A DNA stretch of 64,000 bases from an uncultured Sunxiuqinia sp. (GCA_965372405.1 CBDVCE010000013.1:3777-67776), one strand, 5' to 3'. Positions 1 to 21,141 are shown, counted from the first letter of the stretch. The notes: generated by a model from the letters alone, not told the origin. A program made the numbers and translations.

Positions 1-198
1 CTTTCGTTCAAAATGGCCATCGGACATTTCTCGCTCAGGAGCATATACGGCGGGTTCCCGATTAAAATACGGGACAGGCTGCTAAGTCATAGGAAACAAA
101 ACCGTGTTCAGTTTTATTTGATTGTAGAGTTCCAATAAAGTGATATAACCTCGTTGTAACCGTTGCACTTTGTTGCAACACCACCAACTCATCTTTGA
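1..198 (-). mobile_element. Group IIC intron 3' remnant, copy A (decayed maturase C-terminus plus interrupted domain V; runs off window start)
   Basis: The minus strand encodes ...RLQRGYITLLELYNQIKLNTVLFPMT* (stop at 82-84), like the domain-X end of class C intron RTs. It is followed by CCGCCGTATATG (D5 5' arm, CGC triad) and the same insert as copies B and C. Confidence 0.75.
57..80 (+). repeat. REP-like short palindrome CCCGATTAAAATACGGGACAGGCT
   Basis: Identical 24-mer at 2547-2570 and an inverted variant at 4892-4916; CCCG/CGGG stem. Confidence 0.75.
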
Positions 199-392
199 CG
201 ATTGACGGAAAATTTGAAATAATAAATAAACGAATTGGCTCCGTACAGTTTGAAAGAGAAGTGCTTTGGAAACCCGCACTCCACAAAGCCAAACCGTTAT
301 GCCCAATTACATAATAAGAAACAACAATAGAAAATTCGGGAATTTCATGTTCTGAGTTAAATAATCATATTCTATGTACCTCTGAACTTGCA

Positions 393-770
393 CTATATTG
401 GTTTTCGCCTTCCTTCGATAAATATAACCAGACCACCTCCAGATGCCAAAATAAATAAGTACAAAGCGACTATTCCAATGAAGAAATAGAGAGATTCTTC
501 AGTTTCTGACAGGCCTGATTGCACATTGTGCATAATTATACCTACAATGGCAATAGTGAACGATATTCCGGCTGCTATAATTAATATTTTCAATCTTTTC
601 AATTGCTTTTTAGCTAATCCTGGTTCAATTTCTTCGTGGAAAACACGCTTCCTTTTCCTATACATCACTCCCAAATATATCCAAAATGCCAATGCGAAGA
701 TCATACCAATTGGAAAGGCCATCAAGAGTATCACTACTAATCCTAATCCAATTAATAACTTCTTTTTCAT
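393..770 (-). CDS. Hypothetical membrane protein (about 4 hydrophobic segments)
   Basis: 125-aa ORF with an ATG start, MKKKLLIGLG N-terminus and alternating hydrophobic helices. Confidence 0.75.
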   Translation of the reverse strand: MKKKLLIGLGLVVILLMAFPIGMIFALAFWIYLGVMYRKRKRVFHEEIEPGLAKKQLKRLKILIIAAGISFTIAIVGIIMHNVQSGLSETEESLYFFIGIVALYLFILASGGGLVIFIEGRRKPI

Positions 771-860
771 AATCTCTATATGTTTACCTACTCAAAAGTA
801 GCCAATATTACAAGTCAAGTAATTATATGATATGAATGCAGAAGTAAGCAACAGGGCATA

Positions 861-1134
861 ATCGAGTAGCCCGTCCCACCAGCAAACGCTGATAGGATGA
901 GGCTCTCACACCGGTATTGCTCTCGCAATAACATACGCGAGCTTCGCTCCTTCCTTTCGTTCAAAATGGCCACTGGACATTTCTCGCTCAGGAGCATATA
1001 CGGCGGTTTGCTAAGTCATAGGAAACAAAACCTTACTTGGTTTAATTTGATTGTAGAGTTCCAATAAAGAAACATAACCACGTTGCTTCAAGCTTTCAAC
1101 CGTAATTGTAGGTCCCAACTCCGAAACGAATCAG
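861..1134 (-). mobile_element. Group IIC intron 3' remnant, copy B (maturase tail + D5 + D6 + 3' end)
   Basis: 1118->1011 translates LGPTITVESLKQRGYVSLLELYNQIKPSKVLFPMT*, with an out-of-frame LIRFGV piece at 1134->1117. Then AACCGCCGTATATG...CGTATG...CGGTGTGAGAG and a D6-like stem ending CTACTCGAT at 861. Confidence 0.85.
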
Positions 1135-1571
1135 CTGAATGGTATAAACCATTTGCTTTCATTTCATGCACTACGTTAAGGGTGAATACGCAGCACATGA
1201 AAGCCTTATTCGATTTCTTCATTCTCAAACAGGAACTGCGTTTAGCTCAGCATTATATGCAAGTAAATTTACTAATTCTCGAAACGGATGGGGAAATTAC
1301 AAGGTCGATTCAATTGATTAGCTGGCTCGGAAGATCATTAAGAAGCTGTTTAAGTTTTTTATATTTTGCCAAAAACGAGTCACGATAAATCGTTGTTTTC
1401 TCTGGATCTTCCTTTTCCTAATTTCAGCTCTTTATTGATTTAAAATTGCTCCCAAAATAGTAACATTTTAGTAGTTTAGTTCTATCACTTTTAGTTAGTT
1501 TAATGAGTTAAGTTTTCATCTTAAATGGACAAATAGAATACTCAAAAAGCAATAATGAGTCTTTTGATTTG

Positions 1572-1579
1572 TAACTTTG
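1572..1579 (+). promoter_or_regulatory. Bacteroidota sigma70 -7 element TAACTTTG
   Basis: Matches TAnnTTTG, about 65 nt upstream of the TPR gene. Confidence 0.55.
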
Positions 1580-1642
1580 CCCTCTTCGTAGATGAACAAT
1601 ACCAAGGGCATGGTATTATATTAAAATATAATTAAGGAATAG

Positions 1643-2323
1643 ATGAGTAAAGAAAAGAAGGAAATGATGACAGGAGAAGCTTATGAAATACTTAGAGCTT
1701 TGTATTATTCAGGTAAAGTGAAGCCGACATTAAATAAGATTATTATTGAATTAAAAAATGATTCTGAAAACTTAGAGCTCACTCTTTTGGCTTGTCAGTG
1801 CTTGGTTAGAACTAAGAATTTTGATGAGTTGTCTAAGTACGCTGATGTTTCGATTAAATTGGATCCTAAAATTGCAGGTGGATATTATTACAAGGGAGTG
1901 GCGGTACACCATACAAAAGGAAAAGAGCAAGAAGCTTTAAAAAACTTTAATGAGGCATTAGCTTTTGACCCAGATAACACAATATACCTTAAAAGTAAGG
2001 CTACCACCCATCTTTTGCTTTTTACAGATTATCATTTACCTTTAAATTTTGCTGAAAAACATAGGCTTAAAGCTGAAGAGAGTTTATTGAAAATTATTGA
2101 GCTGATAGAGCAAAAAGAAAATCCTGATTATATTGATTTTTGGACTATTGCTGATGTAAGTACCATGCTTAGACGAAACCTAGATGCCAAGAAGTATTTC
2201 ATTAAAGCGGTAAATGCCTTTAATACTTCGGATAAATCAGAACAAGATATAAATATATATAAAGACATCATTAAGGCTCAAAAAGCTTGTATAAAGTTGA
2301 TGGATAAAATCATTGAAGATTAA
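1643..2323 (+). CDS. Tetratricopeptide-repeat protein
   Basis: 226-aa helical ORF with TPR-like motifs (GYYYKGVA...EALKNFNEALAFDPDN). Confidence 0.8.
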   Translation: MSKEKKEMMTGEAYEILRALYYSGKVKPTLNKIIIELKNDSENLELTLLACQCLVRTKNFDELSKYADVSIKLDPKIAGGYYYKGVAVHHTKGKEQEALKNFNEALAFDPDNTIYLKSKATTHLLLFTDYHLPLNFAEKHRLKAEESLLKIIELIEQKENPDYIDFWTIADVSTMLRRNLDAKKYFIKAVNAFNTSDKSEQDINIYKDIIKAQKACIKLMDKIIED

Positions 2324-2399
2324 TTTCAACATGACCCTTTGAAATTATCAATCAATTAAATAATCATGATTTTCAAAAAAGATAAATAACCAGCACATA

Positions 2400-2546
2400 G
2401 TCGAGTAGACGGTCGTGAGCCATAAAGCTCACGATGCGCCTCTCCCACCGGTATTGCTTTCGCAATAATGTACGCAAGCTACGCTCCTTCCTTTCGTTCA
2501 AAATAGCCACCAGTCATTTCTTGTTCAGGAGCATATACGGCGGTTT
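2400..2546 (-). mobile_element. Group IIC intron 3' remnant, copy C (D5 + D6 only)
   Basis: AACCGCCGTATATG...CGTACAT...CGGTGGGAGAGG, then a D6 stem CGTGAGC/GCTCACG and the end CTACTCGAC at 2400. Confidence 0.8.
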
Positions 2547-2570
2547 CCCGATTAAAATACGGGACAGGCT
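2547..2570 (+). repeat. REP-like short palindrome, copy 2
   Basis: Exact match to 57-80. Confidence 0.75.
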
Positions 2571-2661
2571 ATCCAGTTCATTGAGTTTGTGTCGCGTTCT
2601 AAAAAAAACGCTTAACTCATAATTCAATCTAGTTCTTGTTGCACCCTAGTGAAAGCCTTAG

Positions 2662-2669
2662 TAACTTTG
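2662..2669 (+). promoter_or_regulatory. sigma70 -7 element TAACTTTG for recQ
   Basis: TAnnTTTG about 30 nt upstream of the GTG start. Confidence 0.6.
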
Positions 2670-2698
2670 CGACATAAGTTTAAAAGAGCAAATATTTA

Positions 2699-4837
2699 GT
2701 GAATAAGCAAATATCAGAAAACCATAGCCCCGAAAAACTGCTTCAAAAGCATTTTGGATACAGCACCTTCAGACCACAACAAAAAGAAATAATACAGCAC
2801 GTTATTGATGGTAAGGATGCAGTGGTATTAATGCCTACTGGTGGGGGTAAATCTATGTGCTACCAGTTACCCGCTCTTATGCGAGAAGGACTTACAGTGG
2901 TAATATCTCCATTAATCGCATTAATGAAAGATCAGGTTCAGGCTTTACAATCAAATGGAATTAAGGCTGCTTATCTGAATTCTTCCATGCTTGCCCATGA
3001 AGAGAATCTGGTTCGGGACGAATTGCAGAAGGGAAGTATTAAGTTATTATATGTTTCTCCTGAACGCCTTTTCTCACGAGATTTTTTGGAATATATTGGC
3101 CAACTCAATGTAGGGCTATTTGCCATTGACGAAGCGCATTGTGTTAGCAGCTGGGGACACCACTTCAGACCCGAATACAAGAAATTATCGATATTAAAGC
3201 AGGTTTTTCAGTCTGTTCCGGTAGTCGCATTAACCGCCACAGCCGACAGAGCAGTTCGGGGTGACATAAGCCTTTTATTGAATTTAAACGAGGCTAAATA
3301 TTTCATTTCCTCATTTGACAGGCCTAACATTTCTCTGTCCGTTCTTCCCGGACAAAAAAAATGGCAGCAAATTGAAAAGATAATCCGTAAATACCAGAAT
3401 AAATGCGGCATTATATATTGCAGTAGTAGGGCCGGAACCGAAAAATTGGCTCAGCAAATTCAATCATTAGGTTTCTCGGCTAAAGCCTATCATGCCGGAA
3501 TGAGCAGTGATGTTCGCAGCCAGACCCAAGACGAATTTATTCAGGGCAATTTAAAAATTGTTTGTGCCACACTGGCTTTTGGAATGGGTATCGATAAATC
3601 GAATGTACGATTTGTTATTCATCATAACATGCCCGGTAATCTGGAAAGCTATTATCAGGAAATTGGACGTGCCGGAAGAGATGGGCAAGCTGCTGAAGCC
3701 ATTCTTTTTTATAGCTACCGCGATGTGCAAACACACCTGGGGTTTATTAATGATGTTAAAGATCAGGGCTATGCTAAAATTCAGAAGGCGAAATTAAATC
3801 GAATGCAAGAATATGCTGAAGCCCAGATTTGCAGGAGAAAAATATTATTAAGCTATTTTAGCGAATTACCTGAACACGATTGTAAAAATTGCGATGTGTG
3901 TGCCAACCCACCTAAGTATTTCGATGGAACTAAAGAAGCACAGATGGCCTTATCGGCTGTATACAGAACCAACGAAACAATAGGCGTTAGCACTTTAATA
4001 GATGTTTTAAAAGGTACGCATTCGGCAAACGTATTAGAGCGCAAGCTTGATGCAATAAAAACTTTTGGTGCTGGCAAACAAATTACCCTTTTCAGTTGGC
4101 AAATGTTTGTTCAGCAGTTAATACAACAAGGCTACCTTGAAATTGATTACAAAGAACATTACAATTTAAAGTTGAATGTATTGAGCCAGGAAGTACTGTT
4201 TAAGAATCGGCCGGTGCGTTTAGTTTCATCGGAAACCATTAAAGAGAGACAGGAAAAACTGAAGGAAAAGCCTAAAAGCATAAAGCCTAAGGTTAAAGTA
4301 GATGAATCTCTTTTTGATCATTTAAGATACTTGCGAAAAGAAATAGCGGATAAGATAAAAAAACCAGCTTTTGTTATTTTTAGAGATGCTTCGTTATTGG
4401 AAATGTGCGAGATACTCCCAGTCTCTTATGACGAATTCCTTACTGTAACAGGTGTAGGCGAACACAAAGCAAAATTATATGCAGGTATATTTACCGAGGC
4501 TATTAAAAAATTTACGAATGGCAAAACAAAAGGTGATACCTATAAAGAAACGATGGCTTTGTACACCTCAGGTAAAACCATTTCTGAAATAGCTTTAATA
4601 AGAGGGATACATGACATAACTGTTTATTCTCATCTTGCACATTTAATAAGCAATGGCTATAAGCTTAACATTCGGGAATTAGTAAGCGATGAAGCCTTGG
4701 ATTGCATGAACAAAGCGATTAAAGAATTAGGATATATGACGGCATTAAAACCATACCAGAAGTTTTTTACGCCAAACATTGATTTAGGCAAAATTAGAGT
4801 CATGTTGAGTTATTTTAAATTGCAAGAGGAGGCATAA
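2699..4837 (+). CDS. recQ: ATP-dependent DNA helicase RecQ
   Basis: MPTGGGKSMCYQ (Walker A), DEAHC, ALTATA, YYQEIGRAGRDG, Zn-binding CRR...CKNCDVC, RQC and HRDC regions. Confidence 0.97.
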   Translation: MNKQISENHSPEKLLQKHFGYSTFRPQQKEIIQHVIDGKDAVVLMPTGGGKSMCYQLPALMREGLTVVISPLIALMKDQVQALQSNGIKAAYLNSSMLAHEENLVRDELQKGSIKLLYVSPERLFSRDFLEYIGQLNVGLFAIDEAHCVSSWGHHFRPEYKKLSILKQVFQSVPVVALTATADRAVRGDISLLLNLNEAKYFISSFDRPNISLSVLPGQKKWQQIEKIIRKYQNKCGIIYCSSRAGTEKLAQQIQSLGFSAKAYHAGMSSDVRSQTQDEFIQGNLKIVCATLAFGMGIDKSNVRFVIHHNMPGNLESYYQEIGRAGRDGQAAEAILFYSYRDVQTHLGFINDVKDQGYAKIQKAKLNRMQEYAEAQICRRKILLSYFSELPEHDCKNCDVCANPPKYFDGTKEAQMALSAVYRTNETIGVSTLIDVLKGTHSANVLERKLDAIKTFGAGKQITLFSWQMFVQQLIQQGYLEIDYKEHYNLKLNVLSQEVLFKNRPVRLVSSETIKERQEKLKEKPKSIKPKVKVDESLFDHLRYLRKEIADKIKKPAFVIFRDASLLEMCEILPVSYDEFLTVTGVGEHKAKLYAGIFTEAIKKFTNGKTKGDTYKETMALYTSGKTISEIALIRGIHDITVYSHLAHLISNGYKLNIRELVSDEALDCMNKAIKELGYMTALKPYQKFFTPNIDLGKIRVMLSYFKLQEEA

Positions 4838-4891
4838 TTCGTTTATGAGCCCCAAGAGCCAACGATCAAACCAAAACTTGTCAAAGAGTAT

Positions 4892-4916
4892 GCCTGTCCC
4901 TTCGAATTCAATCGGG
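4892..4916 (-). repeat. REP-like short palindrome, inverted variant
   Basis: The minus strand reads CCCGATTGAATTCGAAGGGACAGGC, sharing the CCCGATT...GGGACAGGC ends with 57-80. Confidence 0.6.
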
Positions 4917-5000
4917 CACATATTCGGCGGTTCGCTAAGTCATAGGAAACAAAACCGAGTTCGGTTTAATTTGATTGTAGCGTTCCAACATAGGAATGTA
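4917..5000 (-). mobile_element. Group IIC intron 3' remnant, copy D (maturase tail + 5' arm of D5)
   Basis: The minus strand encodes YIPMLERYNQIKPNSVLFPMT* (stop at 4935-4937), then GAACCGCCGAATATG. The rest of D5/D6 is missing. Confidence 0.75.
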
Positions 5001-5041
5001 AGCACTGCTAGCAATGAATAAAAATATGTCGGATTTAAATA

Positions 5042-6556
5042 CTATTCATTTGCCAGATTCCACATGGCAATAAAACTGGTTTTAACAACTGCAGACATCT
5101 TTTTGTAATTGATTTTATCCGCATGGTCAAAAGGCCCATGATAATCTGGATGCCCACCTGTATGAAACCACATCATAGGAATATCAATTCTTGCAAACGA
5201 AGCATTATCACTTCCGGCTGCGGGGTTTTTCATTGCTGCATAACGAATATCTAAGCCAAGCTCATGCACTTCATTTGCTGCTTTTACAACTTCTTCAGCC
5301 TTTGGCCAAACAGCAGAATACATGCACGACACCTTCATGTCACGATTTTCCAGATCTCCTTCCCTACCAATCATATCATAATTGTGGTAACACTTTATTT
5401 GATTGGGGTTTTGATGGCTTTTTACAAAATAGCTTGAACCGAACAAACCGCGTTCTTCACCAGTCCATGTCGCAAAAACAACTGTTCGTTTTGGCTTTAT
5501 GCCTGTTTCTTTAAAAGCTCTGGCAATTGCTACTACACCAATAGCACCAGTACCATTATCATCGGCACCATTCCAAATGTAGCCATCATATTTCCCCAAA
5601 TGATCGTAATGTGCACCAACCACAAGCACTTCATCAGTAAGTTCACCTTCAATTACAGCCAAAACATTTCTACAATTCTTTATTTCCTGATCAGCAGAAA
5701 AATTGATAATTATTGTCCCATCAGCAACAGGAAAGCTCTTCTTTTTGTCAGTAGGTGTATTTAATAATTTGCGCCATGCTGGCAAAAGCTGATCAGCCAT
5801 TCGGCTCGAAATACGAATAACAGGAATTCCAGCTGGTCTAGGAAATTCGACTAAATCAAATCCTTTTTTGTAAATTCCTGAAGAGTATTTATTTAATTCC
5901 TTTTCTGCAGGAGCAACAAGATCATCCTGATTTTTTGAAAAAACGAAATCCTGATCAATCTCAAGAATGGCTGAGAATCCTGCCACTACAGCAGCCTCAT
6001 TCTTCATTCCTAAAAGTTTTCGTTCATTCATATTGCTATAAATTATTGAATCTTCAGGAGAGAAACCTTTTACACGCAACAAAATATTTCCAGCATCTTT
6101 CCATTTATCAAGACTCAAGCCATAGTATCCAAATACCAAATTCCCGCTTATCTTTTTATTTGAAAAAAATCGAGATAGGCTGTAATCAATTCCATCATTA
6201 AAGTTAATGACAGATGATGCGCCATCTTCTTTTTTGGTAAGAGATATATGAGCTTTTCCATTTTCAGAAACAATGAAATCAATATTCTGGAAATAACTGT
6301 TTTCAAAATAGGGTTCAAGTTCGAAAGCCCCGAACTGTGAAGCAATGTAATCTGCTGCTTTATGAGCTCCATTTGTAGCTGTTTCTCGGCCTTCAAACCA
6401 ATCAGACGATAGAAACGTTAACTGCGCTTTTAAGCTCTTCTCGGTAATGCTATGCAATCCCTTTTCAATCCCAGACAAGCTTTGTTGTGCCTGAAGATTA
6501 AAAACGACAACTACTAAAAATATAACACTGAATAATCGTTTGATTCCTGAATTCAT
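5042..6556 (-). CDS. M28 family Zn-peptidase with PA-like insert, secreted
   Basis: Signal peptide; GAHYDHLG, GADDNGTG, TGEERGL, NYDMIG, YHGPFD motifs. Confidence 0.92.
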   Translation of the reverse strand: MNSGIKRLFSVIFLVVVVFNLQAQQSLSGIEKGLHSITEKSLKAQLTFLSSDWFEGRETATNGAHKAADYIASQFGAFELEPYFENSYFQNIDFIVSENGKAHISLTKKEDGASSVINFNDGIDYSLSRFFSNKKISGNLVFGYYGLSLDKWKDAGNILLRVKGFSPEDSIIYSNMNERKLLGMKNEAAVVAGFSAILEIDQDFVFSKNQDDLVAPAEKELNKYSSGIYKKGFDLVEFPRPAGIPVIRISSRMADQLLPAWRKLLNTPTDKKKSFPVADGTIIINFSADQEIKNCRNVLAVIEGELTDEVLVVGAHYDHLGKYDGYIWNGADDNGTGAIGVVAIARAFKETGIKPKRTVVFATWTGEERGLFGSSYFVKSHQNPNQIKCYHNYDMIGREGDLENRDMKVSCMYSAVWPKAEEVVKAANEVHELGLDIRYAAMKNPAAGSDNASFARIDIPMMWFHTGGHPDYHGPFDHADKINYKKMSAVVKTSFIAMWNLANE

Positions 6557-19471: not shown

Positions 19472-20255
19472 TACAATACGAAACATTGGAGAACCAGTAA
19501 CACTCGTAGATTGTGATGCAGAAGAACCAAATGCACAGCAATTCATAAAAGGAAACTTGATTGATGAGCAATTCGTAATTCAAAAAGTTCCAATTATTGA
19601 TTTGAAGAATTGTACTTTCTGTGGTAAATGCCAGAAATTCTGCAATTATAATGCAATTATTGTTATACCTGAAATTAAACGAATTCAGGTAATTGAAGAA
19701 CTATGTCATGATTGTGGTGCTTGCTCTTTTGCGTGCAAATTTTCTGCAATTACCGAAAAGGACAAGACAATAGGTACGATTAGTATATTTGAATTGGATA
19801 AGTATTCCGTACTATTAGAAAGCAGATTGAATATTGGGGTTTATTCATCAGTACCATTAATTAAATCGGCTATTAGTGCTGTAGATAACGAAACTATTGC
19901 TCTATTTGATGCACCACCCGGGACTTCGTGCCCATTTATTGCATCGGTGGAGGATGCTGATTATGTAGTACTGGTTACAGAACCTACTCCATTTGGATTG
20001 AATGATTTAAAACTCTCGGTAAATACTCTCAAAGAACTAAGAAAATCTTTTGGTGTAGTAATAAATCGCGTTGGAATCGGCAATAATGATGTTTTTAACT
20101 ACTTAAAAGAAAATCAAATACCTCTTTTAGCTGAAATTCCTTTTGATCGTGAGATAGCGAGGAACTATTCTGAAGGAAAGTTAATTACCCAAGCACTCCC
20201 TCAATATCAGGAAGTATTTGAACAATTGTATTTTACCATTCAAAACATTAACTAA
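19404..20255 (+). CDS. MinD-superfamily P-loop ATPase with inserted 2x[4Fe-4S] ferredoxin
   Basis: SGKGGTGKT, DCDAEEPN, CTFCGKCQKFC / CHDCGACSFAC, DAPPGTSCP, EPTPFG. Confidence 0.92.
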   Translation: MKIAIASGKGGTGKTLVSTNLFNTIRNIGEPVTLVDCDAEEPNAQQFIKGNLIDEQFVIQKVPIIDLKNCTFCGKCQKFCNYNAIIVIPEIKRIQVIEELCHDCGACSFACKFSAITEKDKTIGTISIFELDKYSVLLESRLNIGVYSSVPLIKSAISAVDNETIALFDAPPGTSCPFIASVEDADYVVLVTEPTPFGLNDLKLSVNTLKELRKSFGVVINRVGIGNNDVFNYLKENQIPLLAEIPFDREIARNYSEGKLITQALPQYQEVFEQLYFTIQNIN

Positions 20256-20256
20256 A

Positions 20257-21141
20257 GTGATAGAAATAGCCATATTAAGCGGGAAAGGTGGTACTGGAAA
20301 AACAAGTCTAAGTGCAGCTTTTACATCACTTGAATCGAATATTGTTGTAGCTGATTGTGATGTAGATGCAGCAAATTTACATTTAGTATTAAACCCTCAG
20401 AATTATCGGGAAGAAGTATACATTTCAGGACAAAAAGCGATAATTGATTACAATAAATGTACTAATTGTGCACTTTGTCTAGAATATTGTCGGTTTGGAG
20501 CAATCCAAATAAAGAATCAAAAAATAGAGATTTCGGAAACATCCTGCGATGGCTGTCACCTGTGTGCAAGAGTTTGTCCTGCAGATGCAATTACAATGGA
20601 AAATCATGATAAAAGCCGCTGGTATGAGGCTACGATTGAAAATGGAAGAATGGTTCATGCCCACCTTGCTCCTGGTGAAGATAATTCAGGCAAGTTGGTC
20701 AATATTGTAAGAGATCAAGCAAGAGAAATTGCATTTAATATTGATTCAGAGATCATTCTTATTGATGGTCCTCCGGGAATTGGATGTCCGGTTATTTCGT
20801 CTCTAACAGGAACGGACAAAGTACTATTAGTCACAGAACCAAGCCAATCTGGGCTTCATGATTTAAAAAGAATTGTTGAACTAGTTAATCAGTTCAAAAT
20901 AAAAGCCTTTGTTGTAATAAATAAATTCGATCTAAACATTCAAATAAGTGAAGAGATTGAAAATTGGAGCAAGCAGAAAGACATTCCTGTTGCAGGAAAA
21001 TTACCTTTTGACCCTATTGTTGTTGATGCAATGATTAATTGTAAAACAATAACTCAATGGTTACCTGATTCCCCATTCAGCAAAGAAATAATTGAAATAT
21101 GGAATAAGTTAAAAACAAATGAACACAAAAAACCTATTTGA
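20257..21141 (+). CDS. MinD-superfamily P-loop ATPase with inserted ferredoxin, second paralog
   Basis: SGKGGTGKT, DCDVDAANL, CTNCALCLEYC / CDGCHLCARVC, DGPPGIGCP; likely GTG start at 20257. Confidence 0.92.
   Translation: MIEIAILSGKGGTGKTSLSAAFTSLESNIVVADCDVDAANLHLVLNPQNYREEVYISGQKAIIDYNKCTNCALCLEYCRFGAIQIKNQKIEISETSCDGCHLCARVCPADAITMENHDKSRWYEATIENGRMVHAHLAPGEDNSGKLVNIVRDQAREIAFNIDSEIILIDGPPGIGCPVISSLTGTDKVLLVTEPSQSGLHDLKRIVELVNQFKIKAFVVINKFDLNIQISEEIENWSKQKDIPVAGKLPFDPIVVDAMINCKTITQWLPDSPFSKEIIEIWNKLKTNEHKKPI

What the first reader, a model, noticed from the sequence alone, without database searches (positions are those of the whole stretch)
1..5000. Four same-strand group IIC intron 3' ends clustered within 5 kb
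Seen: related minus-strand segments at 1-198, 861-1134, 2400-2546 and 4917-5000. Three keep a maturase tail ending (V)LFPMT*. All four keep the D5 5' arm CCGCCG(T/A)ATATG. B and C keep D6 and the CTACTCGA(T/C) end, and both are followed by TATG. No RT domain or intron 5' end is visible. Established: class C introns target sites after stem-loops, and 5'-truncated copies are common. Inference: this is either a retrohoming hotspot or a small non-autonomous retro-element moved in trans, and the copies bracket single genes in a cassette-like way.
Basis: partly seen in the sequence, partly recalled or inferred. Interest (0 to 1): 0.65.

Follow-up and report, generated by a model that had tools for sequence, protein, structure and literature searches.

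The report
Decayed class C intron tails, odd D5
Four broken 3' ends of a bacterial class C group II intron (a self-splicing retroelement) lie on one strand within 5 kb; such relics are ordinary, but this lineage carries a 55-base insert in the normally invariant catalytic hairpin (domain 5), which hides it from the standard Rfam intron model.

Summary
Four related minus-strand segments hold the last 22-35 codons of a group II intron maturase and the domain 5 (D5) 5' arm. These are A 1-~215 (cut by the window edge), B 861-1118, C 2400-2590 and D ~4870-5003. B and C also keep D6 and the intron 3' end. No RT domain and no D1-D3 occur anywhere in the 64 kb.

Homology to full-length relatives shows they are class C intron 3' ends. 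Those relatives have IEPs that best match solved IIC reverse transcriptases, an Rfam D1-D4 match, and near-threshold Rfam D5/D6 matches for the short-D5 siblings.

Rfam finds no D5/D6 in the window. In A, B and C the D5 apical loop is replaced by a 55-nt two-hairpin module. B and C have 13 further nt next to the catalytic bulge. The same module occurs only in Geofilum and Thermophagus, always in ORF-defective copies, several of them multiplied ORF-less mini-introns.

The window copies have different 5' break points. They read best as decayed, 5'-truncated retrohoming products, not one non-autonomous unit or a cassette array. This lineage sits antisense, just past the stop codon of a convergent gene, which explains the gene-bracketing look.

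Verdict: known kind of relic, unusual D5 variant, moderate interest.

The parts
1..53 (-). Copy A: D5 5' arm (42-53, CCGCCGTATATG) and the first ~40 nt of the D5-loop insert, cut by the window start
   Evidence: own covariance model R1 hits 1-38 at 27.6 bits, E=4e-5
56..80 (-). Copy A: 25-nt hairpin AGCCTGTCCCG-loop-CGGGA between the ORF stop and D5. It copies a hairpin that lies upstream of the ORF in the full-length relative L004
   Evidence: 12/12 plus 7/7 match to L004 intron positions 384-410
82..215 (-). Copy A: remnant of the IEP C-terminus (...VQRLQRGYITLLELYNQIKLNTVLFPMT*, stop 82-84). Decayed upstream of ~168
   Evidence: tblastn 85-168, E=4e-7; ORF list; 169-215 by eye only
861..908 (-). 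Copy B: D6 with a bulged A 7 nt from the end, and the intron 3' end ...GGCTACTCGAT. TATG follows at 857-860
   Evidence: 89% identical to L004 D6. L004's D6 and its AU end are aligned by Rfam RF00029. Pair counts
909..1008 (-). Copy B: expanded D5. Lower helix with CGC triad, 2-nt bulge (AU in B), upper helix AUGC/GCGU, then a 55-nt two-hairpin insert (939-993) in place of the loop, plus an extra 13 nt (918-930) by the bulge
   Evidence: R1 115 bits for 861-1008; no Rfam hit
1011..1118 (-). Copy B: IEP C-terminal remnant LGPTITVESLKQRGYVSLLELYNQIKPSKVLFPMT* (stop 1011-1013)
   Evidence: tblastn E=2e-12, 66% identity over 35 aa to the L004 IEP; blastn 997-1111
2400..2445 (-). Copy C: D6 and 3' end ...GTCTACTCGAC. 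TATG follows at 2396-2399. The distal stem differs from B's but is fully paired
   Evidence: 7 D6 pairs show compensatory change
2446..2545 (-). Copy C: expanded D5 (AC bulge) with the 55-nt insert (2476-2530) and the extra 13 nt (2455-2467)
   Evidence: R1 110 bits for 2400-2545
2546..2590 (-). Copy C: the same 25-nt hairpin as in A (2546-2570), preceded by a 19-nt exact fragment of the maturase (domain X) coding region (2572-2590, ...NKLNELD...). The ORF tail is deleted
   Evidence: blastn 19/19; local alignment score 38 against a shuffle maximum of 24
4870..4934 (-). Copy D: D5 5' arm CCGCCGAATATG (4919-4930), followed by a degenerate remainder that fades out next to the RecQ stop (4837). 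No recognisable D5 3' arm or D6
   Evidence: not detected by R1
4935..5003 (-). Copy D: IEP C-terminal remnant AYIPMLERYNQIKPNSVLFPMT* (stop 4935-4937). It begins 37 nt after the stop of the M28 peptidase gene
   Evidence: tblastn E=5e-6; blastn 4921-5000

Best explanation
The four segments are dead relics of class C (IIC) group II intron insertions. Each copy entered by retrohoming. In that process the intron RNA reverse-splices into single-stranded DNA just past a stem-loop, and cDNA synthesis starts from the intron's 3' end. That gives a precise 3' junction in B and C. A's 3' end lies beyond the window edge and D's is degenerate.

Each copy lost its 5' part, either at integration through incomplete cDNA synthesis or later by deletion. 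So the 5' break point differs in every copy and no RT or D1-D3 sequence remains. They cannot splice or move now and most likely do nothing.

They belong to a rare sub-lineage seen so far in a Salinivirgaceae-like bacterium (the window), Geofilum and Thermophagus. In this sub-lineage the D5 apical loop is replaced by a 55-nt two-hairpin module.

The gene-bracketing look arises because this lineage lands antisense to a gene, in the short spacer between its stop codon and its terminator stem-loop. C sits behind the TPR gene and D behind RecQ. Copies accumulate locally on one strand.

Shown: identity as IIC 3' ends, the D5 insert, the lack of 5' parts, local clustering, and the antisense position after stop codons. 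Inferred: the integration mechanism, that the insert-bearing parents were once mobile, and that the relics have no present function.
For: 1. Identity.
- Tail to IEP homology.
- D6 is 89% identical to that of full-length intron L004.
- L003 and L004 carry RF02001 at 84 and 78 bits. L004 and L009 hit RF00029 at 38.9 and 37.7 bits, with the intron ending in ...CUACUCGAU.
- The L004 IEP best matches GsI-IIC RT (318 bits) and the E. rectale IIC maturase (298 bits), against LtrA 118 and T.el 117. It is full length with no endonuclease extension.
- The D5 5' arm reads C-CGC-CGUAU, that is a CGC triad.

2. Truncation.
- No RT hit and no 5' ribozyme hit in 64 kb.
- The 5' limits differ: A ~215, B ~1118, C an internal deletion, D 5003.

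3. D5 insert.
- The alignment against short-D5 siblings shows a clean 55-nt insertion between GUAUAUGC and GCGUACGUACGGUGG.
- The consensus fold keeps the lower helix, the AC bulge and the upper helix. 91.9% of cells are paired, against 34-44% in slid controls.

4. The lineage spread with the insert. There are 10 insert-bearing copies at distinct sites in three genomes, plus degenerate D.

5. Landing site.
- The intron 3' end lies about 0-24 nt from the stop of a convergent gene in L001 (20, 13), L002 (0, 15), L003 (14), L004 (12), L005/L006 (9) and L007 (24, 6).
- Window C lies 76 nt after the TPR stop. D fades out 30-80 nt after the RecQ stop.
- L003 has a strong 10-bp hairpin about 15 nt upstream of its 5' end.

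6. Literature (PMC4424553, PMC3001079).
- Most bacterial intron copies are truncated.
- IIC introns insert after terminator or attC stem-loops.
- Introns without an endonuclease domain are primed at replication forks.
Against: - No intact insert-bearing intron, and no intact IEP of any close relative, was found. L003, L004 and L009 are all frameshifted or deleted, so activity of the expanded D5 is unproven.
- B and C share an extra 13 nt two positions from the catalytic bulge and a shortened D5-D6 linker. Either would be expected to harm catalysis. Yet both copies exist at separate sites, which fits poorly with each being an independent retrohoming event from an active parent.
- B does not follow the antisense-after-stop rule. 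Its 3' end faces the start of a co-oriented gene.
- Upstream terminator hairpins cannot be checked for the window copies because their 5' junctions are gone.
- Genome-wide copy number in the source organism is unknown.
Confidence: 0.6

Rival explanations
1. A small non-autonomous retroelement. The 3' module (ORF tail, expanded D5, D6), or an ORF-less mini-intron containing it, is copied in trans by the IEP of resident autonomous IIC introns. The window copies are its 5'-truncated offspring.
For: - In Geofilum (L002), three copies share one internal deletion junction and a fourth is cut downstream of it. Two keep the intron 5' end and two are 5'-truncated; the three with a D5 carry the insert, and copy z has no D5 at all.
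- In Thermophagus (L001), two copies share another deletion junction.
- Every insert-bearing copy seen is ORF-defective.
- The review PMC4424553 notes that ORF-less bacterial introns sit in genomes with related IEPs, and that such elements could be missed if their domain V is unlike known ones.
Against: - The window copies share no 5' junction and keep no D1-D3. Without D1-D3 they cannot reverse-splice.
- No IEP gene lies in the 64 kb.
- The Thermophagus pair also shares more than 100 nt of upstream flank, so it may be a DNA duplication.
Confidence: 0.2
2. Domesticated RNA or DNA elements. The retained D5-insert and D6 hairpins now serve the host. They could act as terminators or insulators for the convergent genes, as antisense RNAs, or as a trans-acting D5.
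For: - Hairpins are well kept in B and C, with compensatory changes.
- The position is constant, next to gene 3' ends.
- A contig from a roughly 98%-identical strain in metagenome X1 spans the TPR end into copy C, and another at about 94% covers part of B.
Against: - Most of the covariation is in D6 (7 of 9 pairs). It is equally explained by divergence of once-active parent introns.
- D has decayed and C has lost its tail, so there is no uniform unit.
- RecQ orthologues in close relatives have no such element.
- No run-of-T terminator signature was seen by eye, and no RNA data are available.
Confidence: 0.1
3. An integron-like cassette array, or its precursor, in which intron fragments mark cassette boundaries. 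This is the model of cassette genesis by IIC-attC introns.
For: - The antisense position just after a gene's stop codon is the geometry reported for IIC-attC introns, which insert into the bottom strand opposite to cassette transcription (PMC3001079).
- In Geofilum the copies alternate with toxin-antitoxin modules.
- DNA homology to RecQ loci of relatives ends about where C and D begin.
Against: - The bracketed window genes lie on both strands and include a full-length RecQ and an M28 peptidase.
- At least one of them appears to have its own promoter box.
- No attC-like long imperfect repeats were seen, and no integrase was noticed among the window ORFs.
- Base composition is uniform.
- Homology ending at gene borders is expected wherever neighbours differ.
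Confidence: 0.04

Closest known systems
Bacterial class C (IIC) group II introns, e.g. B.h.I1, GsI-IIC, O. iheyensis and E. rectale introns
   Same: - The relatives' IEP has no endonuclease domain and best matches solved IIC RTs.
- Small ribozyme: about 500 nt 5' of the ORF and about 85 nt 3' of it in L004.
- CGC triad in D5.
- D6 with a bulged A 7 nt from an AU end.
- Intergenic sites next to stem-loops.
- Many truncated copies.
   Different: - The D5 loop is replaced by a 55-nt two-hairpin module, plus 13 nt by the bulge in the window copies. Rfam RF00029 therefore fails.
- Orientation is antisense to the neighbouring gene, between its stop codon and its terminator.
- The window copies lack everything 5' of the last ~35 IEP codons.
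Group IIC-attC introns (S.ma.I2 lineage)
   Same: [quoted passage not shown]
   Different: No integron, integrase or attC site is evident here. Membership of that monophyletic IEP clade was not tested.
ORF-less or internally deleted bacterial group II introns acting with a sibling IEP in trans (reviewed in PMC4424553)
   Same: The Geofilum and Thermophagus relatives are 300-450-nt derivatives that keep both intron ends and exist in several copies.
   Different: The window copies keep only the 3' end. Known ORF-less introns have a standard D5.
B.c.I4-type introns with an altered 3' end (listed in PMC4424553; that the alteration is an extra segment after D6 is from my own knowledge)
   Same: A lineage-specific RNA insertion in the normally compact 3' part of a bacterial group II intron.
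   Different: There the extra segment follows D6. Here it sits inside D5, the catalytic hairpin.

Membership tests
Group II intron (any class) | Domain 5: ~34-nt hairpin with a catalytic triad and a 2-nt bulge, detectable with Rfam RF00029 | tested here: inconclusive
   There is no RF00029 hit at E<=10. Both D5 arms, the CGC triad and the AC bulge position align to the short-D5 siblings that do hit RF00029. The hairpin is interrupted by 55 nt, plus 13 nt in B and C.
Group II intron (any class) | Domain 6 with a bulged branch-point A 7-8 nt from a 3' end ...AY | tested here: met
   In B and C, GAGAG...CU-A-CUC-GAU/GAC has the bulged A 7 nt from the end. B is 89% identical to L004's D6, whose end is aligned by RF00029. 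7 pairs show compensatory change. In A it is cut off and in D it is lost.
Group II intron (any class) | 5' end GUGYG-like and domains 1-3 | tested here: not met
   None in the window. Present in relatives L003 and L004 (RF02001). The window holds fragments, not introns.
Group II intron (any class) | Intron-encoded RT/maturase in domain 4 | tested here: not met
   Only the last 22-35 codons survive in A, B and D, plus a 19-nt domain X fragment in C. No RT domain in 64 kb.
Class C (IIC) | IEP groups with class C and lacks the endonuclease domain | tested here: met
   Tested on the read-through IEP of relative L004, not on the window. It scores 318 and 298 bits to solved IIC RTs over their full length, against about 118 to IIA and IIB IEPs. 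No formal phylogeny was made.
Class C (IIC) | CGC rather than AGC catalytic triad in D5 (from my own knowledge of IIC ribozymes) | tested here: met
   A/C-C-CGC-CGUAU in all four copies and all relatives.
Class C (IIC) | Insertion just downstream of a terminator or attC-like stem-loop (PMC4424553, PMC3001079) | tested here: inconclusive
   5' junctions are missing in the window. In relatives, L003 has a 10-bp hairpin about 15 nt upstream and L004 has a stable hairpin about 11 nt upstream. L002b and L007 are weak.
Group IIC-attC introns | Inserted in the bottom strand of an integron attC site, opposite to cassette transcription | tested here: inconclusive
   The opposite orientation next to a gene's stop holds in 10 of 12 relative copies checked and in window C (D's 3' end is degenerate). 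No attC or integron was identified and the IEP clade was not tested.
Integron cassette array | Co-oriented, mostly promoterless single-gene cassettes, each ending in attC, next to an IntI integrase | tested here: not met
   The genes lie on both strands and include RecQ and an M28 peptidase. RecQ occurs without these elements in relatives. No integrase was noticed, though not every ORF was scanned.
ORF-less (non-autonomous) group II intron | Both ribozyme ends kept and ORF lost; copies share the same deletion | tested here: not met
   Window: no 5' end and no shared junction. The feature is met by relatives in Geofilum L002 and Thermophagus L001.

The most novel reading that the evidence does not exclude
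The expanded D5 is functional. Under this reading, IIC ribozymes in these Bacteroidia tolerate or use a 55-nt two-hairpin module in place of the D5 loop. The module could be a new tertiary contact, a protein platform or a ligand sensor. It would mark a family of ORF-less mini-introns, mobilised in trans, that surveys based on a D5 motif or on the RT gene cannot see. The window's four tails would be the 5'-truncated debris of that family's local hopping.
Probability: 0.22. Interest if true: 0.7.

Novelty: new variant of a known kind. Interest (0 to 1): 0.4.

Why it matters
Truncated IIC intron copies next to gene ends are routine, so the locus itself teaches little.

Two things are worth keeping. 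First, D5 is the most conserved piece of group II introns and the counterpart of the spliceosomal U6 stem-loop. A lineage that reached at least ten sites in three genomes with a 55-nt module in the D5 loop suggests either unexpected tolerance at the catalytic hairpin or spread of dead copies by another route. Either can be tested with a simple splicing assay.

Second, such copies escape the standard D5/D6 covariance model. The 2015 review PMC4424553 warned that ORF-less bacterial introns would be overlooked only if their domain V were unlike known ones. These are such cases, and annotation pipelines will leave them as unexplained intergenic repeats.

Tried and rejected
- Rfam at gathering and at E<=10 found no intron, ribozyme or riboswitch family over the copies.
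- Pfam and NCBIfam on the 30-36-aa tail peptides found nothing useful.
- I first considered a TnpB/IscB-type guide RNA, a bridge RNA, a retron or DGR, and a hammerhead-like core for the repeat. I dropped these once L003 showed a group II RT directly upstream of the same tail and RNA.
- Exact look-ups of window proteins found no source contig, so copy A could not be extended beyond the window edge.
- The metagenome pattern scan gave only a chance hit in a high-GC coding region, L008.
- The insert is not an internal duplication of intron sequence.
- No sequence from the 5' part of the intron lies upstream of A, B, C or D.
- Laying metagenome contigs gave pieces too short to show empty sites. They showed only that part of B and copy C are covered by contigs 94-98% identical from run X1, and that the tail is high-copy in sediments.
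- No RNA runs were available.
- A search with the peptide encoded by the insert in 5.8 billion proteins found only one Geofilum protein, so there is no intact IEP reading through an expanded D5.
- An outward promoter in the insert was looked for by eye using the Bacteroidota -33 and -7 motifs. None was found.

Full report
**Observation**

Reading the minus strand of 1-6000, the repeat finder and an alignment of the four segments confirm four related copies.
- The 12-mer CCGCCGWATATG occurs four times in 64 kb, all on the minus strand at 42-53, 995-1006, 2532-2543 and 4919-4930. Shuffles give 0.08 expected.
- A, B and D keep an ORF end ...LFPMT*.
- B and C run on for about 150 nt to ...CTACTCGAT / ...CTACTCGAC, followed by TATG.
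- A is cut by the window edge. D decays soon after the 12-mer.

Rfam gives no hit to the group II D5/D6 model, or to any other family, over the copies. This holds at gathering thresholds over the whole window and at E<=10 over 1-6000. The tail peptides alone hit no Pfam or NCBIfam family.

**Relatives**

An exact-pattern scan of one genome per species found the same RNA in Thermophagus xiamenensis (L001) and Geofilum sp. OHC36d9 (L002, L003).
- In L003 the tail and RNA are preceded by a frameshifted group II RT with YADD and domain X. Rfam finds group-II-D1D4-3 there at 84 bits.
- A protein search with the L003 domain X and tail gave 1171 GIIM-domain proteins. Some tails are very close to the window's, for example P0015 ...RGYIPMLELYKQIRPETAMFPMT.
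- The contig of P0015, L004, holds a 1905-nt intron at 2550-4454. It starts with GTGAA, carries a 440-codon ORF with two frameshifts, and has a short D5, a D6 and the end ...CTACTCGAT|TATGG.
- tblastn of the L004 IEP against the window hits only its last 22-35 residues: B E=2e-12, A 4e-7, D 5e-6. It hits nothing of the RT.
- blastn shows B's D6 is 89% identical to L004's. It also shows that C holds a 19-nt exact piece of the domain X coding region.
- No 5' ribozyme sequence occurs anywhere in the window.
- The read-through L004 IEP matches solved class C RTs over their full length: GsI-IIC 318 bits and the E. rectale IIC maturase 298 bits. LtrA and T.el score about 118.

So the copies are 3' ends of class C introns. 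I tested class C membership on relatives, not on the fragments themselves.

**Why Rfam fails**

L004 and L009, siblings with a short D5, do hit RF00029 at 38.9 and 37.7 bits (E about 1e-4, just under the gathering score of 40). The intron end aligns at ...CUACUCGAU.

Aligned with them, window A, B and C and all Geofilum and Thermophagus copies have a clean 55-nt insertion. It lies between the two strands of the D5 upper helix: GUAUAUGC[55 nt]GCGU-AC-GUACGGUGG.

The consensus fold of seven copies keeps these D5 features:
- the lower helix CCGCCGUAU/GUACGGUGG with a CGC triad;
- the AC bulge;
- a 4-bp upper helix.

It turns the loop into two hairpins around an invariant AUUUUGAACGAAAGG.

Pair counts:
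- 91.9% of cells pair, against 34-44% in slid controls.
- 9 of 46 pairs show compensatory change. Seven of these are in D6 and only two lie in the insert.
- Support for the insert's own fold is therefore modest.

B and C carry 13 further nt two positions from the bulge, and a shortened D5-D6 linker. Both should be harmful to catalysis.

The insert has no homology elsewhere in the introns and no Rfam family.

**How widespread is the insert**

- A covariance model built from the seven copies finds only B, C and the stub of A in the window with filters off.
- On the fetched loci the model finds a second Thermophagus copy.
- The metagenome pattern scan gave only a chance hit.
- A profile of the peptide that the insert would encode found a single Geofilum protein among 5.8 billion.

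The variant is rare. Every copy seen is ORF-defective.

Siblings with a short D5 exist for both ORF-tail types. L004 is like the window tail. L009 is 93% identical in protein to the L003-derived query. The insert has therefore been gained or lost, or the 3' module exchanged, between close introns.

**Non-autonomous element?**

- In Geofilum L002, three copies share one internal deletion junction and a fourth starts downstream of it. One of the three lacks D5 altogether. Two keep the intron 5' end.
- The two Thermophagus copies share another junction, but also more than 100 nt of upstream flank.
- So ORF-less derivatives did multiply in relatives.
- In the window the 5' limits all differ, and there is no 5' end sequence.
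- The window copies therefore look like independent 5'-truncated or deleted relics. The review PMC4424553 states that most bacterial intron copies are truncated or inactivated.

**Why they bracket genes**

Across relatives, the intron 3' end lies about 0-24 nt from the stop codon of a convergent gene in 10 of 12 copies checked:
- L001: 20 and 13 nt.
- L002: 0 and 15 nt.
- L003: 14 nt.
- L004: 12 nt.
- L005/L006: 9 nt.
- L007: 24 and 6 nt.

In L003 a 10-bp hairpin lies about 15 nt upstream of the intron 5' end.

From this I infer that the lineage inserts antisense, between a gene's stop codon and its terminator. The literature supports the general behaviour:
- IIC introns insert after stem-loops (PMC4424553).
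- IIC-attC introns sit opposite to the adjacent gene (PMC3001079).

In the window:
- C lies 76 nt after the TPR gene's stop.
- D fills the spacer after RecQ's stop.
- B is an exception.

The bracketed genes are ordinary: a small membrane protein, a TPR protein, a full RecQ and an M28 peptidase.

RecQ orthologues at 88-90% identity sit among unrelated neighbours, without intron pieces. DNA homology to them ends at 2618/2647 and 4839/4870, about where C and D begin. That is expected wherever neighbours differ. It would also fit rearrangement at intron copies. Base composition gives no sign of an island.

**Clustering**

- The window has 4 copies in 5 kb and none in the next 59 kb.
- Geofilum has 4 in about 4 kb.
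- Thermophagus has 2 in 3.6 kb.

Local accumulation on one strand is real in all three genomes. I could not test genome-wide density.

**Verdict**

The most likely account is decayed retrohoming relics without present function.

The unexpected element is the expanded D5. It may mark a hidden family of ORF-less introns, or only a dead lineage. A splicing assay and whole-genome searches would decide which.

Noticed in passing
L002:1200-5050 (Geofilum sp. OHC36d9): Four same-strand intron derivatives alternate with toxin-antitoxin genes on the other strand: a PIN toxin with its antitoxin, and a HigB/HigA-like pair (assigned by eye). The last copy abuts a large 509-aa ATPase-like gene. One copy (1211-1513) has lost D5 altogether, and its last base overlaps the PIN gene's stop codon.
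   Followed up: partly
L001:520-894 and L001:4080-4414 (Thermophagus xiamenensis): Two roughly 300-nt insert-bearing derivatives share the same internal deletion. They also share over 100 nt of upstream flank that is rich in CTGGCTTCTG-like short repeats. The repeat unit may therefore be larger than the intron piece.
   Followed up: partly
L004, L005, L006 (JGI metagenome contigs): The same intron, with the same two frameshifts (ORFs of 249, 70 and 122 aa), occurs in three samples and next to at least two different genes. Either a broken copy has spread or the frameshifts are tolerated.
   Followed up: no
window:56-80 and window:2546-2570: A 25-nt hairpin that lies upstream of the ORF in the full-length relative L004 sits between the ORF stop and D5 in copies A and C, but not in B or D. 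I have no explanation for how it got there.
   Followed up: partly
window:857-860, 2396-2399 and the 3' flanks of all relatives: The first bases after the intron end are similar everywhere: T, then R, K, G. A G/T-rich ..CGT..TTTT stretch often follows. This is probably a target-site preference, but it was not analysed further.
   Followed up: partly
window:1134-1642: A 500-nt stretch upstream of copy B has no convincing gene. The 101-aa ORF at 1083-1388 (+) has no Pfam hit. It may be decayed intron or gene sequence.
   Followed up: partly
window:39770-47392: Direct-repeat families D1 and D5 reflect a shared DKDWGSGGNPGW-like motif in three neighbouring plus-strand genes, which are probably paralogues.
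   Followed up: no
window:19404-21141: Two adjacent overlapping genes share a repeated stretch (19965-20012 and 20821-20868). They look like tandem paralogues.
   Followed up: no
window:1-234 in metagenome runs X1-X4: Contig depth over the ORF tail and D5 arm is 10-50 times that of the flanks in marine and cold-seep sediment metagenomes. The loose ends read the short standard D5. Related introns with a normal D5 are therefore abundant in these communities.
   Followed up: partly
L007:4339-4432: Another truncated relative has a D5 with an 8-bp upper helix and an 8-nt loop (about 42 nt in all). D5 apical length varies more widely in this intron group than in the Rfam consensus.
   Followed up: no
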